Of a stretch of 64,000 nucleotides of DNA, positions 6,774-39,553 are shown piece by piece; positions within the stretch are counted from its first letter, which is position 1, and each line of letters opens with the position of its first letter. Source of the stretch: a virus; the IMG/VR virus record IMGVR_UViG_3300009130_000013, positions 1 to 64,000 of that record; one strand, 5' to 3'. Under the pieces are notes generated by a model that saw nothing but the letters and a program-made list of their open reading frames with translations, made no database searches and was not told the origin of the DNA. Made by a program: the position numbers and the translations under genes.

Positions 6774-6849
6774 TGGCTCCGCGAGCTGGATTCGAACCAG
6801 CGACCCACAGCTTAGAAGGCTGTTGCTCTATCCACTGAGCTATCGCGGA
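6774..6849 (-). tRNA. tRNA-Arg(TCT)
   Basis: Cloverleaf, ACAGC-CTTCTAA-GCTGT, CCA end. Confidence 0.95.
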
Positions 6850-6855
6850 ACAGAG

Positions 6856-6930
6856 TGGAGTTGCGGGTAGGAATCAAACCTACATAAAAAGGATTTGCAA
6901 TCCTTCGCATAATCATTCTGCCACCGCAAC
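6856..6930 (-). tRNA. tRNA-Cys(GCA)
   Basis: AAGGA-TTGCAAA-TCCTT, U discriminator, CCA; atypical T-loop TTTGATT. Confidence 0.9.
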
Positions 6931-6932
6931 AT

Positions 6933-7007
6933 TGGTACACCGTAGGAGAATCGAACTCCTCTTGCCGGGATGAAAACCCGGTGTCCTAACCGATAGACGA
7001 ACGGTGC
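6933..7007 (-). tRNA. tRNA-Glu(TTC)
   Basis: CCGGG-TTTTCAT-CCCGG, CCA end. Confidence 0.95.
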
Positions 7008-7009
7008 CC

Positions 7010-7085
7010 TGGTTCCGGAGAATGGACTTGAACCACTGACACAAGGATTTTCAGTCCTTTGCTCTACCAACTGAGCTACTCCGGA
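7010..7085 (-). tRNA. tRNA-Phe(GAA)
   Basis: AAGGA-CTGAAAA-TCCTT, CCA end. Confidence 0.95.
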
Positions 7086-7095
7086 TTAAGATTAT

Positions 7096-7124
7096 ATTAT
7101 ACATTAAGTTGAATCACTTGTCAA
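7096..7124 (-). promoter_or_regulatory. sigma70-type promoter for the tRNA cluster
   Basis: TTGACA-17-TATAAT on the minus strand just upstream of tRNA-Phe. Confidence 0.75.
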
Positions 7125-7130
7125 GTCATA

Positions 7131-7220
7131 TGGCGGAGAGAGTGAGATTCGAACTCACGAAAGAGTTGCCCCTTTGCTGGTTTTCAAGACCAGTGCTTTC
7201 AACCGCTCAGCCATCTCTCC
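7131..7220 (-). tRNA. tRNA-Ser(TGA)
   Basis: CTGGT-CTTGAAA-ACCAG, long variable arm, CCA end. Confidence 0.95.
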
Positions 7221-36269: not shown

Positions 36270-36451
36270 ATACAAAATATTCAACAACACCTAGCACAGA
36301 AGACAGATTGCTTAATGTTAAAGTTTGGAAAAATATGAATAAAGACAACGCCTGGGTACAATTTATTAGTAAGATTTGGATCAGACGTTTAGCAAGAGAC
36401 CTTTCATTAGAAAAGGTTGGGTTAACTCATCACGATGGGTTATATAAATGA
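36266..36451 (+). CDS. hypothetical protein
   Basis: ATGA coupling. Confidence 0.55.
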   Translation: MNTKYSTTPSTEDRLLNVKVWKNMNKDNAWVQFISKIWIRRLARDLSLEKVGLTHHDGLYK

Positions 36452-36495
36452 ATTTGTTTGGGTACGCCAAACATTTAACTGAGGAAGGAGACAAA

Positions 36496-36963
36496 ATGAA
36501 GAAACTATATAAACAATTAGCAACAATACTTTTTATTATGGGTATGGTAATTTCTATGCCAACGTTTGCTTATAGTGAAGGGTTTATAAGACAAGGAAAG
36601 GTTATTGATCATTATAAGATGGTTATTGATCGTGTACCTTACCAAGTTGAAGTATGCCAAAAAGTAACAGGTCAACCTGGTGCTTCATCGGCTGATGTCA
36701 TAGTTGGTGCTATAATTGGTGGTGCTGTAGGTAACCAAATTGGTAAAGGCAAAGGTAACGATGCCGCAACTATTTTGGGTGCTATTTTAGGTGCCGATAT
36801 TGCCAATAAAAGTAAACCAGGTACTACAGGTTCAACTCAATGTTTTTTAGAAACTCGTTATAATGAAACTGAAAGAAACATATACAGCCATTCTGTATTA
36901 CACTTTGAATATGCTGGACGTATGTATTCTGTTTCGTTTGTAAGAGACGGCGTTAACAACTAG
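36496..36963 (+). CDS. glycine-zipper 2TM exported protein
   Basis: GAIIGGAVGNQIGKGKGNDAATILGAILGA. Confidence 0.85.
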   Translation: MKKLYKQLATILFIMGMVISMPTFAYSEGFIRQGKVIDHYKMVIDRVPYQVEVCQKVTGQPGASSADVIVGAIIGGAVGNQIGKGKGNDAATILGAILGADIANKSKPGTTGSTQCFLETRYNETERNIYSHSVLHFEYAGRMYSVSFVRDGVNN

Positions 36964-36974
36964 TAGATAAAATT

Positions 36975-37466
36975 ATGACAATGAGTTTAGCACGTGGTCT
37001 GACCATGCTGAATACAAAAAAGCGAAAACGTAAGACTATTACGGAAAAGCAAAGATTAAAGTATAAGGCAGATCTTAAAGCACATAACAAACGTTTGAGA
37101 CAACTACATCTACATAATTCTCAAATGAACCTTGATGATTATATTGATTATGTTCAAGGTTATTATCAGCCACGTAACACATTTCAAGTCCGTAAAACAA
37201 TTACCGGGCCTATTTCCACTTCACCTAGGAGTGTAGTGTCAACGGTTAGCACGGCGGTCTCCAAAACCGCAAGTGGGGGTTCGAATCCCTCCGCTTCTGC
37301 CAACCATTCTTGGCGTAACAATTCTAACGGTGGTACTAAAGATTGGAAGGAGCAACAAGAACGTATTGAGATTAGTAAACAATATGCTATTGTTCCAGCT
37401 TATAACAAAGGCCCGTACATGGTCGTATCAAAAGAGGATTTAAAGACGGCCGGGAAGAAGGTCTGA
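36975..37466 (+). CDS. conserved phage hypothetical protein containing a nested tRNA
   Basis: Uninterrupted 163 aa ORF; basic N-terminus and C-terminal PAYNKGPYMV motif flank the tRNA. Confidence 0.7.
   Translation: MTMSLARGLTMLNTKKRKRKTITEKQRLKYKADLKAHNKRLRQLHLHNSQMNLDDYIDYVQGYYQPRNTFQVRKTITGPISTSPRSVVSTVSTAVSKTASGGSNPSASANHSWRNNSNGGTKDWKEQQERIEISKQYAIVPAYNKGPYMVVSKEDLKTAGKKV
37227..37302 (+). tRNA. tRNA-Trp(CCA), nested inside CDS 36975..37466
   Basis: AGGAGTG/CGCTTCT acceptor stem, GTGT/GCAC D stem, GCGGT-CTCCAAA-ACCGC, GGGGG-TTCGAAT-CCCTC, G discriminator plus CCA. Confidence 0.88.
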
Positions 37467-37670
37467 TTGTCCGACTCAAAAGATTCACATATATTTAAAA
37501 ATGACAGCGGTAGAAAGATTGTAAGAATTCCTGTAAAGGAATTTGTTTGTATAGGTGAAACGCCACCTATGGATCATCCACACGTTTTTTTAACTATGGG
37601 CAATAAAGATTTTATGTATTGTCCTTATTGTAGTACGAGGTATGAATATGGCGGGAATGATGAAACGTAA
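37467..37670 (+). CDS. zinc-finger CHCC-type protein
   Basis: C.G....DHPHVFL......CPYC. Confidence 0.85.
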   Translation: MSDSKDSHIFKNDSGRKIVRIPVKEFVCIGETPPMDHPHVFLTMGNKDFMYCPYCSTRYEYGGNDET

Positions 37671-38310
37671 ATTTAAAAAATGGACATATATAATCTTAGG
37701 ATTTATATTTGGATTAATATTAACATTTGTTGTAGGAACATTTTACCCTAACTTTTATGTTGTATCAAAATTACAACAACAATTTGATGATAAGATTCAA
37801 TCTGTTTGGGAAGACTTTGGTATAATAGAACCTGCTATAGAATATTCAAACAATAACGAATTTGTTTTATCTGTTAGTAAATGTATTCAATGGATAAATT
37901 TAGGCGTTAAAACACACGAAAGAATAGATAGAGAAATTATCATAGCAATGGCTGTTCTTGAAACAGGATACGGAAAGAGTAGATTTGCTAACGAAGGTAA
38001 TAACTTATTTGGTATTAGAACTTGGGATGATGAAATACCACAACTAAAACCATTAGGAAATCCTGACGTTGTTTGGGGTGTAAGAGTATACAAAACCAAG
38101 TGCCAATCAGTTCAAGATATGATAAGTACTATTAACAGACATCCAGCCTATGAACTGTTTAGAATTGAAAGAGCAAAACAGTTAGAAACAAATTCTATTA
38201 ACATTAATAAACAAATCGATCTTCTAAACAAATGGAGCACCAACCCTGACTACACAAAACTAATTAAGCAAAAGGTTATAAAGATTAAAAAAATATTAGA
38301 GAATGGGTGA
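37657..38310 (+). CDS. membrane-anchored glucosaminidase (Bax/GH73-like)
   Basis: N-terminal TM; AMAVLETGYGKSRFANEGNNLFGIR. Confidence 0.85.
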   Translation: MMKRKFKKWTYIILGFIFGLILTFVVGTFYPNFYVVSKLQQQFDDKIQSVWEDFGIIEPAIEYSNNNEFVLSVSKCIQWINLGVKTHERIDREIIIAMAVLETGYGKSRFANEGNNLFGIRTWDDEIPQLKPLGNPDVVWGVRVYKTKCQSVQDMISTINRHPAYELFRIERAKQLETNSININKQIDLLNKWSTNPDYTKLIKQKVIKIKKILENG

Positions 38311-39553
38311 ACCGATTTATAGTTTAAAAAATCTCAACACAATCCAAGTAGAACTTACAGCCAATTGTAATGCTATGTGTCCTGCTTGTGACCGGTGGGT
38401 TAGAGATACCGATAATAAAGATAAAACACTAAAGGTTGGTGACTTAAACCCTACCATTAAACCTTACCAAGGTAGTAAAGGACATTTTACTTGGGAGGCT
38501 TGGCAAAATTTATTCAATAAAGAAACATTAGCAGACTTAAGAATGATCACCTATAATGGAACTTGGGGTGATGCTATTTTACATCCTGATATATTTTCGT
38601 ATACACAACATATCATTGATACAATAAAAGAAACAGATAATAAATTTTGTGCTCTTGAAATTAGTACCAATGCTGGTTTACATTCTACAGATTGGTGGAG
38701 AGAATTAGCAAACTTAAACAAACAATTTTATCAGCCATGGAGTAAAGTTATATTTTGTATAGATGGACTTGATGATAAAACCCATCAACTATATCGTAGA
38801 GCAGTTAAGTGGGAAAAGGTTATGGAAAATGCCAAAGCATATATAGACGAAGGTGGTAGAGCTGTTTGGCAATGGTTACAATTTGATCACAATAAACATC
38901 AAACAGAACAAGCAGAGGAATTAGCAAAAGAATTAGGGTTCGCTGAATTTTGGTTAAGAGGCAGTCGAGGTGAACGTTTAGCAGTACAAAAAACAATAGC
39001 AAAATTAGGTGACGACGATACTGATATCGGAAATGTAGACGTAGCCTTGTATAATAGCAAAGCAGTAAACAGACGTGTTAAACATAATGAAGCGAAAGAG
39101 GGCTCTATATCGTATATTACAGATAAGGATAAAGTATCAGTTAATACAAAAGAAATAACATCTAAATATAAGAATTACGAAGATTATAGAGAGAATACAA
39201 CGATTTCTTGTTCCTGGGGGAACAAAGGAAAAATCAACGTGGAGTTCAACGGTTTAGTCCATCCATGTTGTTACGTTAACCACTATATGAATAACTTCTG
39301 GAGTAAAGAACTAGATGGTCATTTAGAGGGTAGCGAATATGAGATTATGACAGATAGTTATGTTGGTCATTGGAATAATTTGAACCATAACAATCTACAG
39401 AACATATTATCTCATAACTTTTATATGAACGACCTGGAGCAATCTTGGAAAAATAAGACAGGTGATTTAGAACTTCCAAGACTAGGTGTTTGTGTAAGTC
39501 ATTGTGGTGAAGGCCACGAAAACATCAGAAGTTATGATGTAAGCAAACTGTAA
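38303..39553 (+). CDS. radical SAM protein with C-terminal SPASM/Twitch domain
   Basis: CNAMCPAC; HPCC; CVSHC. Confidence 0.9.
   Translation: MGEPIYSLKNLNTIQVELTANCNAMCPACDRWVRDTDNKDKTLKVGDLNPTIKPYQGSKGHFTWEAWQNLFNKETLADLRMITYNGTWGDAILHPDIFSYTQHIIDTIKETDNKFCALEISTNAGLHSTDWWRELANLNKQFYQPWSKVIFCIDGLDDKTHQLYRRAVKWEKVMENAKAYIDEGGRAVWQWLQFDHNKHQTEQAEELAKELGFAEFWLRGSRGERLAVQKTIAKLGDDDTDIGNVDVALYNSKAVNRRVKHNEAKEGSISYITDKDKVSVNTKEITSKYKNYEDYRENTTISCSWGNKGKINVEFNGLVHPCCYVNHYMNNFWSKELDGHLEGSEYEIMTDSYVGHWNNLNHNNLQNILSHNFYMNDLEQSWKNKTGDLELPRLGVCVSHCGEGHENIRSYDVSKL

What the first reader, a model, noticed from the sequence alone, without database searches (positions are those of the whole stretch)
36975..37466. 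A complete tRNA-Trp nested in-frame, same strand, inside an intact protein gene
Seen: nt 37227-37302 fold as a canonical 76-nt tRNA-Trp(CCA) with encoded CCA. The same nucleotides also translate without stops (RSVVSTVSTAVSKTASGGSNPSASA) as the S/T-rich linker of a 163-aa ORF. Both flanks look like real protein: a basic helical N-terminus and the C-terminal PAYNKGPYMV motif I recognise from large-myophage hypotheticals. Known: tRNA maturation by RNase P and 3' nucleases would cut this mRNA. Inference: a dual-function locus in which translation and tRNA excision are mutually exclusive. It could be a built-in mRNA-decay timer, or a sensor that releases tRNA-Trp when ribosome traffic falls; the first Trp codon of the ORF lies just after the tRNA. 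Annotation pipelines usually discard one of the two features.
Basis: partly seen in the sequence, partly recalled or inferred. Interest (0 to 1): 0.82.

Follow-up and report, generated by a model that had tools for sequence, protein, structure and literature searches.

The report
tRNA gene nested inside phage ORF
A complete tryptophan tRNA gene sits in frame inside the floppy middle of a small conserved gene of marine giant phages, selection has kept both the tRNA shape and the reading frame, and a cultured phage (Melnitz) has the same layout, so it can be tested at the bench.

Summary
ARAGORN and Rfam call a 76-nt tRNA-Trp(CCA) at 37227-37302. It forms codons 85-109 of an uninterrupted 163-aa ORF (36975-37466).

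Both flanks belong to one conserved protein family with about 500 relatives, most without a tRNA. About 29 records carry a tRNA inside the linker of this family: three types of Trp, Arg, Pro, or Arg plus Pro in tandem. In every one the frame runs open through the tRNA, including those found by searches blind to reading frame.

- The nested tRNAs show compensatory base-pair changes and are 88-97% identical, while the coding flanks are 53-78% identical.
- Both flanks are under purifying selection (dN/dS 0.09-0.47).
- No conserved start codon lies after the tRNA.
- In a complete 328-kb relative the nested copy is the only tRNA-Trp.

Best reading: one transcript serves either as mRNA or as tRNA precursor, and the tRNA is cargo lodged in a tolerant disordered linker.

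The only published precedent I found is selC inside selB (Mukai 2021). This scan has already noted the same family on other genomes. New here: cultured Methylophilales phage Melnitz carries an unannotated nested tRNA-Trp in its homologue.

The parts
36975..37466 (+). 163-aa ORF of the PAYNKGPYMV family (stop codon included), with the tRNA nested in its linker
   Evidence: ORF list. 497 homologues covering both ends, alignment A1. 382 cluster representatives at 50% identity. Weak C-terminal hit to phrog_4593, function unknown. No Pfam family.
36975..37187 (+). N-terminal basic helical domain (residues 1-71; MTM start, KKRKRK, YIDYVQG)
   Evidence: AlphaFold2 gives helices 24-43 and 53-61 with pLDDT above 90. 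M51, Y56, Y59 and G62 are invariant. dN/dS among tRNA-bearing genes is 0.09-0.47.
37188..37226 (+). Linker segment VRKTITGPISTSP (residues 72-84). It is the counterpart of the VRETxxxPS motif of tRNA-less homologues and also serves as the tRNA's 5' leader
   Evidence: Compared by eye with the tRNA-less linkers printed. pLDDT is below 50.
37227..37302 (+). tRNA-Trp(CCA), 76 nt with encoded CCA, read as codons 85-109 plus the first base of codon 110
   Evidence: ARAGORN. Rfam 56.9 bits. Across nested copies 99.4% of cells are paired and 6 pairs change on both sides; 0 of 500 shuffles reach this. It is 88-97% identical among the 76-nt copies, against 53-78% for the flanks.
37303..37334 (+). Linker after the tRNA (residues 110-120, NHSWRNNSNGG), which is also the tRNA's 3' trailer. 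It has no in-frame ATG, GTG or TTG
   Evidence: Start-codon scan. pLDDT below 50.
37335..37466 (+). Conserved C-terminal module (residues 121-163: WKEQQER..SKQY..PAYNKGPYMVV..TAGKKV) and the stop codon
   Evidence: Invariant columns. dN/dS 0.09-0.46 among tRNA-bearing genes. The same module occurs in the Arg/Pro-bearing relatives (hhalign probability 97%).

Best explanation
A working tRNA-Trp gene lies inside the codons for a disordered linker between the two conserved domains of a small phage protein. It got there by insertion. RNA polymerase makes one transcript. Molecules that ribosomes read before the cloverleaf is cut yield the full-length protein, in which the tRNA bases read as a Ser/Thr/Gly-rich 25-residue spacer. 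Molecules cut by host RNase P and 3'-end nucleases yield tRNA-Trp and leave a stop-less 5' mRNA piece and an untranslatable 3' piece. Selection therefore acts on the same 76 bases twice: strongly for the cloverleaf, and weakly for 'no stop, right frame'. The arrangement is most simply a by-product of packing tRNA cargo into a gene-dense genome. A floppy linker is one of the few places where about 75 extra bases do no harm, and tRNA-Trp is usually stop-free in this frame. Shown here: both features are present, both are conserved, and the layout recurs. Inferred: that both products are made, and that they compete for the same RNA molecules.
For: 1. The tRNA is real and under selection. ARAGORN and Rfam call it. 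In nine nested copies 99.4% of stem cells pair and six pairs show changes on both sides, which 0 of 500 shuffles reach and which collapses when partners are slid. Between the window and L106 (96% protein identity), T-stem pair G-C becomes C-G through two changes that are both synonymous in the ORF. The tRNA is 88-97% identical between genes whose flanks are 53-78% identical and whose third codon positions are 35-60% identical.
2. It is the only tRNA-Trp in a complete 328-kb relative that has 15 tRNAs.
3. The protein is real. There are 497 homologues, most without a tRNA, sharing both domains. Among tRNA-bearing genes dN/dS is 0.09-0.47 for the N part and 0.09-0.46 for the C part. Five of eleven lineages have no in-frame start between the tRNA and the C module.
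4. The frame is kept. Searches that ignore frame (tRNA 5' pattern; T-loop plus PAYNKGP DNA pattern) found no nested tRNA with a broken frame. tRNAs of 74, 75, 76, 77 and 78 nt, and a 160-nt Arg+Pro pair, are all read through. At 76 and 77 nt, removing the tRNA would shift the frame.
5. The segment lies in a predicted disordered linker, residues 72-120 with pLDDT below 50.
6. Open reading is cheap: 54 of 65 free-standing tRNA-Trp of this type have no stop in the same frame (corrected).
Against: A single-sequence energy fold does not give the cloverleaf and is no better than shuffles (z = -0.56). Avoidance of stops inside the nested tRNAs is not significant on its own: 0 of 12 against 11 of 65, Fisher p = 0.13. 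Copies with a broken frame would be lost if the protein matters, so 'always open' shows selection on the protein, not that much full-length protein is made. The protein's function is unknown. A weak internal promoter for the tRNA cannot be excluded.
Confidence: 0.7

Rival explanations
1. The nesting is an evolved control device. Ribosome traffic through the linker hinders RNase P, so tRNA release and carrier-protein output are reciprocally regulated, as a timer or as a sensor of translation. The stop-less fragments are cleared by tmRNA.
For: The same gene family has taken up tRNAs several times at different linker positions: Trp of three types, Arg and Pro. The complete relative G001 encodes its own alpha-type tmRNA, and the Melnitz paper reports a phage ssrA gene. 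Mukai proposed the same logic for selB/selC.
Against: Most family members have no tRNA. The tRNA identity varies, so the protein has no tie to one tRNA. Earlier scan notes report nested tRNAs in unrelated phage genes (not checked here), which fits tolerant linkers better than a family-specific device. No expression data exist.
Confidence: 0.15
2. The protein is dispensable and the ORF is open by luck. The locus is just a tRNA gene whose leader and trailer still look like an old gene.
For: tRNA-Trp is stop-free in this frame in 83% of free-standing relatives. A single in-frame insertion has a chance of roughly 0.28.
Against: dN/dS is 0.09-0.47 on both flanks among tRNA-bearing genes with synonymous sites near saturation, and PAYNKGPYMVV is invariant. 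The frame is kept across at least five separate tRNA contents; by chance that is about 0.002-0.006.
Confidence: 0.06
3. The tRNA-like stretch is a dead relic that now serves only as linker codons.
For: The energy fold of the single sequence is unremarkable.
Against: Compensatory changes keep every stem. The stretch is far more conserved than the flanking codons. All identity features are intact. It is the sole tRNA-Trp of a complete genome. tRNA-less linkers show no decayed tRNA.
Confidence: 0.04
4. The tRNA acts like an intron. It is cut out by tRNA-processing enzymes and the two mRNA halves are rejoined by an RNA ligase.
For: None found directly.
Against: Removing 76 or 77 nt would shift the frame, yet in every lineage the frame is continuous only when the tRNA is read. 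None of the nested copies contains a stop.
Confidence: 0.02

Closest known systems
selC (tRNA-Sec) nested in the selB ORF of Alphaproteobacteria (Mukai 2021, Int J Mol Sci 22:4605, PMC8124441; a bioinformatic prediction)
   Same: An entire tRNA gene on the same strand is read in frame as amino acids and conserved across taxa. The proposed consequence is the same: processing yields a stop-less mRNA, so the tRNA and the protein are alternatives.
   Different: In selB the tRNA forms a C-terminal extension after all functional domains, and the protein binds that very tRNA. Here the tRNA lies between two conserved domains, so the C module can only be made by reading through it. The host is a phage gene of unknown function, and relatives carry other tRNAs, or two of them.
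tRNA genes nested in protein genes of the Armadillidium vulgare mitochondrial genome (Doublet et al. 2015, RNA Biol 12:1159, as cited in Mukai's reference list; not read here)
   Same: A tRNA overlaps a protein gene in a compact genome, and processing and translation compete for the transcript.
   Different: That case concerns organelle tRNAs of reduced structure in a 14-kb genome. It is not a canonical bacterial-type tRNA in a phage linker.
Ordinary free-standing phage tRNA genes and arrays (T4-like phages; the window's own array at 6774-7220)
   Same: The tRNA is of the same type. The nested 75-nt copy in L002 matches a free-standing phage tRNA-Trp at 73 of 75 positions. The presumed role is the same: supplying or replacing host tRNA.
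   Different: Free-standing copies lie between genes, often with a stop codon directly before or after them.
tmRNA
   Same: A single RNA with both tRNA-like and mRNA-like roles.
   Different: tmRNA is a dedicated rescue RNA with a short tag frame outside its tRNA-like part. ARAGORN calls no tmRNA here, and the tRNA bases themselves are the codons.
Earlier notes of this scan on the same gene family in other genomes (e1-5337812, e1-5337828) and on other phage genes (e1-5827392, e1-3294985, e1-5770901)
   Same: The same layout, and for the first two the same family: a tRNA in frame in a linker, with fold and frame both kept.
   Different: These are unpublished AI notes. Added here: the Arg, Pro and Arg+Pro forms, the different insertion sites, the nearest cellular tRNA, and the cultured Melnitz case.

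Membership tests
Canonical bacterial-type elongator tRNA-Trp | Cloverleaf with 7/4/5/5-bp stems, T-loop GTTCGAATC and D-loop GG | tested here: met
   Rfam RF00005 scores 56.9 bits over model positions 1-71. ARAGORN agrees. All 21 pairs hold in the nested copies.
Canonical bacterial-type elongator tRNA-Trp | Anticodon CCA with A37, discriminator G73, and an A1-U72 (or G1-U72) first pair. The Trp identity set is recalled from my own knowledge of E. coli tRNA-Trp. | tested here: met
   Read from alignment A3: CCA, A37 and G73 are invariant; pair 1-72 is AU in six copies and GU in two.
Canonical bacterial-type elongator tRNA-Trp | The RNA is processed, modified and charged with Trp | not testable with these tools
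No reads were laid.
[quoted passage not shown] | The whole tRNA lies on the same strand, inside the ORF, and is read without a stop | tested here: met
   and about 29 related records.
[quoted passage not shown] | The tRNA forms a C-terminal extension and is the ligand of the encoded protein | tested here: not met
   The tRNA lies between two conserved domains. Relatives carry Arg or Pro tRNAs. So this works like the selB case but is not a member of it.
PAYNKGPYMV small-protein family (PHROG 4593 region; homologues in Pelagibacter phages HTVC008M and Mosig and in Methylophilales phage Melnitz) | An N-terminal basic helical domain with YIDYxxG plus a C-terminal [ER]xxISKxYxxxPAYNKGPYxV module, joined by a variable linker | tested here: met
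   Alignment A1 and its invariant columns. Profile search. Phage hits.
Phage attachment site (attP) within a tRNA gene | A partial tRNA copy (usually the 3' part) next to an integrase | tested here: not met
   The tRNA is complete with its own 5' half. The neighbouring genes are a glycine-zipper protein, a zinc-finger protein, a glucosaminidase and a radical SAM protein; none is an integrase.

The most novel reading that the evidence does not exclude
The PAYNKGPY gene family is a dedicated carrier for phage tRNA genes. Ribosomes moving through the linker control RNase P access, so tRNA supply rises when translation of the carrier falls and the reverse. The phage's own tmRNA clears the stop-less fragments. 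This would be a translation-gated tRNA release switch with no described counterpart.
Probability: 0.12. Interest if true: 0.9.

Novelty: new variant of a known kind. Interest (0 to 1): 0.75.

Why it matters
Genome annotation assumes that a stretch of DNA is either a tRNA gene or coding sequence, and pipelines drop one of the two when they overlap. The Melnitz GenBank record shows no tRNA feature at its nested site. If both products are made, these phages show that a canonical tRNA can be translated as protein, and that one transcript is split between two fates. That links tRNA supply, mRNA decay and ribosome rescue. The layout recurs with different tRNAs in one gene family, which gives a natural series for asking how RNA structure and coding constraints are reconciled. 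Melnitz and its host strain are in culture, so the question can be tested directly.

Tried and rejected
- Near-identical DNA in cultured phages: none found.
- Energy fold of the single tRNA sequence: not a cloverleaf, z = -0.56. I rely on covariance models and covariation instead.
- Decayed tRNA remnants in tRNA-less linkers: none, z at most 2.1. The resemblance suggested by the first protein alignment came from misaligned Ser/Thr/Pro-rich linkers.
- Stop avoidance inside nested tRNAs against free-standing ones: not significant, p = 0.13.
- Function of the protein: nothing from Pfam, only an unnamed family in PHROGs, no Foldseek PDB match, no ESM Atlas hit.
- A dedicated promoter in the window: the matches do not exceed shuffles. 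A consensus promoter abuts the start codon in the other clade, but with and without the tRNA alike.
- L407 from the short-distance pattern scan is a chance match in unrelated GC-rich DNA.
- The 76-aa ORF that runs through the window's tRNA array at 6840-7070 has no protein flanks and is chance.
- An attP or integration reading was rejected: the tRNA is complete and no integrase lies nearby.
- Excision followed by ligation was rejected on frame arithmetic.

Full report
**What is there.** The window comes from a 93-kb viral contig that CheckV rates 26% complete. ARAGORN finds a tRNA-Trp(CCA) at 37227-37302 on the + strand. Rfam's tRNA model scores it 56.9 bits, full length. The ORF 36975..37466 (163 aa) runs through it without a stop. 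tRNA bases 1-75 are codons 85-109. Of the eight tRNAs in the window and the 15 in a complete relative, this is the only one inside a long same-strand open stretch: 169 and 158 aa against 81 aa or less for the others.

**The ORF is a real gene.** A protein search returned 497 relatives of about 141-168 aa that cover both ends of the query. The alignment shows one protein. It has an N-terminal basic domain with invariant M51, Y56, Y59 and G62. It has a C-terminal module with invariant PAYNKGPYMV and TAG.K. A variable linker joins them. Most relatives have no insert. The cultured Pelagibacter myophages Mosig and HTVC008M carry short tRNA-less versions annotated as hypothetical proteins. A profile search of 1.84 billion representatives found 382 clusters. 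AlphaFold2 predicts helices 24-43 and 53-61 with pLDDT above 90. Residues 72-120, which include the tRNA-coded 85-109, fall below 50. The function is unknown.

**Nesting recurs and the frame is always open.** Eighteen of the 120 listed protein clusters contain the tRNA-coded peptide, but protein searches can only find open frames. I therefore searched DNA collections without regard to reading frame.

- A pattern from the 5' part of the tRNA found many tRNA-Trp genes in the metagenome and viral collections.
- In every hit where the PAYNKGP motif lay within 450 nt downstream in any frame, it was in the tRNA's frame, with no stop between and the N-domain motif upstream. These are L106, L120, L134, L137, L142, L153, L195, L197 and L199, plus the viral contigs behind L002, L010 and L041.
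- A second frame-blind pattern (T-loop, then 80-110 nt, then DNA encoding AYNKGP) found 12 further contigs.
- In these, a more distant branch of the family carries tRNA-Arg(TCT, 78 nt), tRNA-Pro(TGG, 77 nt), or both in tandem. All are read through, and the copies scanned (L394-L396) score 60-70 bits in Rfam.
- These genes share the C module with the window's family (hhalign probability 97%) and are homologous to Melnitz gp124 over their whole length.
- Peptide signatures in two further representatives suggest a Pro-like tRNA (P0164) and an Ala(UGC)-like tRNA (P0253). This rests on the peptides alone.

I found no nested tRNA with a broken frame.

**The tRNA is under selection as RNA.**

- In nine nested copies (eight distinct), 99.4% of stem cells pair and six pairs change on both sides. 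No shuffle in 500 reaches this, and the signal vanishes when partners are slid.
- The window and L106 encode proteins 96% identical. Their T-stems differ by G-C to C-G, through two changes that are both synonymous in the ORF.
- The 76-nt copies are 88-97% identical between genes whose flanks are 53-78% identical and whose third codon positions are 35-60% identical.
- In G001, a complete 328-kb genome with terminal repeats, the nested copy is the only tRNA-Trp among 15 tRNAs.
- A single-sequence energy fold does not recover the cloverleaf, so I give it no weight either way.

**The protein is under selection in tRNA-bearing lineages.**

- dN/dS is 0.09-0.47 for the part before the tRNA and 0.09-0.46 for the part after it, with synonymous sites often saturated.
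- The window, L002, L010, L106 and L153 have no in-frame ATG, GTG or TTG between the tRNA and the conserved C module. That module can therefore only be made by ribosomes reading through the tRNA.
- The nested tRNAs are 74, 75, 76, 77 and 78 nt long, yet the frame is continuous only when they are read. Removing a 76- or 77-nt tRNA would shift the frame. This rules out a cut-and-rejoin model.

**History.**

- On a tree built without the insert, the tRNA state needs at least five changes, and well-supported branches force at least two.
- tRNA-less linkers show no decayed tRNA. They do share a motif (VRETxxxPS) across distant clades.
- The window keeps this motif just upstream of its tRNA (VRKTITGPISTSP). 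Melnitz keeps it just downstream of its tRNA (IRQTPDYPSLSN). The insertion sites therefore differ.
- The 75-nt tRNA of L002 matches a free-standing phage tRNA-Trp at 73 of 75 positions, but matches the other nested copies at only 55-60 of 76.
- Several separate captures are the simplest reading.
- The nearest cellular relative of the 76-nt type (65-71 of 76 positions) lies between tuf and secE-nusG in a marine alphaproteobacterial MAG, MarineAlpha5_Bin3. That copy has an in-frame TGA in its anticodon stem, which all nested copies lack.
- Such stops are uncommon anyway: 54 of 65 free-standing relatives are open in this frame. Stop avoidance is therefore not significant by itself, p = 0.13. One in-frame insertion has a chance of about 0.28. 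Four or five independent ones have a chance of 0.006-0.002.

**A cultured case.**

- tblastn with the L041 protein hit four records of Methylophilales phage Melnitz.
- In MZ577097.1, the CDS MelnitzEXVC044M_124 (147 aa) is a full-length homologue (hhalign probability 98.9%, E = 9.7e-18).
- A 74-nt tRNA-Trp(CCA) lies inside it on the same strand (ARAGORN; Rfam 50.8 bits).
- The record shows no tRNA feature there, and its locus tags skip number 125.
- The paper describing Melnitz lists four tRNAs, including this Trp, but says nothing about nesting (PMC9004378).

**Mechanism.** What is shown is that two constraints act on one sequence. What follows from established RNase P and 3'-end processing is that a transcript cut at the tRNA ends can no longer give full-length protein. 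It leaves a stop-less 5' piece, which is a substrate for tmRNA. G001 encodes an alpha-type tmRNA (131.6 bits), and the Melnitz paper reports a phage ssrA gene. Whether this competition is used for control is open. The facts favour tolerated cargo in a floppy linker over a purpose-built switch:

- most family members lack a tRNA;
- the tRNA identity varies;
- the consensus promoter that abuts the start codon in one clade is present with and without the tRNA;
- other phage genes reportedly host tRNAs too (not checked here).

I put about 0.15 on a regulatory role.

**Comparison with what is known.** In six literature searches the only paper on a whole tRNA nested in a protein ORF outside organelles was Mukai 2021 on selC inside selB. 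It calls itself the first such report in bacteria and proposes the same either-or model. The present case differs in four ways: the tRNA lies between two conserved domains, the host is a phage gene, the tRNA is not tied to the protein's function, and the content varies. This scan has noted the same family on other genomes before (e1-5337812, e1-5337828), so this is not the scan's first sighting. I rate it a new variant of a known kind.

Noticed in passing
L406:1405-1848 (MZ577097.1, positions 68376-68819): Cultured Methylophilales phage Melnitz has a tRNA-Trp nested in CDS _124. The GenBank record shows no tRNA feature there, and its locus tags skip _125. The tRNA was probably dropped because it overlaps a CDS.
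   Followed up: yes
L394-L405 (viral contigs): A distant branch of the same gene family carries tRNA-Arg(TCT), tRNA-Pro(TGG), or both in tandem (5-nt spacer) inside its ORF. All 12 loci are open.
   Followed up: yes
L320:1501-2030; also P0148, P0186, P0191, P0196 and others: The N-terminal domain of the family is also found joined to a divergent C-terminal module (YTGxxxxGxxxMHKSNxVPV...RMRR) in place of PAYNKGPYMVV. Melnitz looks intermediate between the two.
   Followed up: partly
G001:C1:94937-95228 (complete 328-kb relative, the contig of L041): A phage-encoded alpha-type (two-piece) tmRNA, Rfam RF01849 at 131.6 bits. It points to an alphaproteobacterial host.
   Followed up: partly
L097, L128, L149, L166, L392: The cellular tRNA-Trp closest to the nested type lies between tuf and secE-nusG in a marine alphaproteobacterium (MAG MarineAlpha5_Bin3). 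This is a possible hint to the host.
   Followed up: partly
L007, L010, L041, L043: the 40 nt before the start codon: A consensus TTGACA-17-TATATT/TATAGT promoter ends 6-9 nt before the ATG of this gene in one clade, which implies a leaderless or near-leaderless mRNA. It is present with and without the tRNA.
   Followed up: partly
window 36448-36963, 37467-37670, 37642-38310, 38303-39553: The neighbouring genes are a glycine-zipper 2TM protein, a zf-CHCC zinc-finger protein whose start overlaps the stop of the tRNA-bearing gene, a glucosaminidase-domain protein, and a radical SAM protein. In relatives the gene also lies next to cell-wall hydrolases.
   Followed up: no
window 6774-7220 (- strand): An array of five tRNAs (Arg, Cys, Glu, Phe, Ser) spaced 2-45 nt apart. 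A 76-aa TTG-started ORF runs through three of them but has no protein flanks, so it is probably chance.
   Followed up: partly
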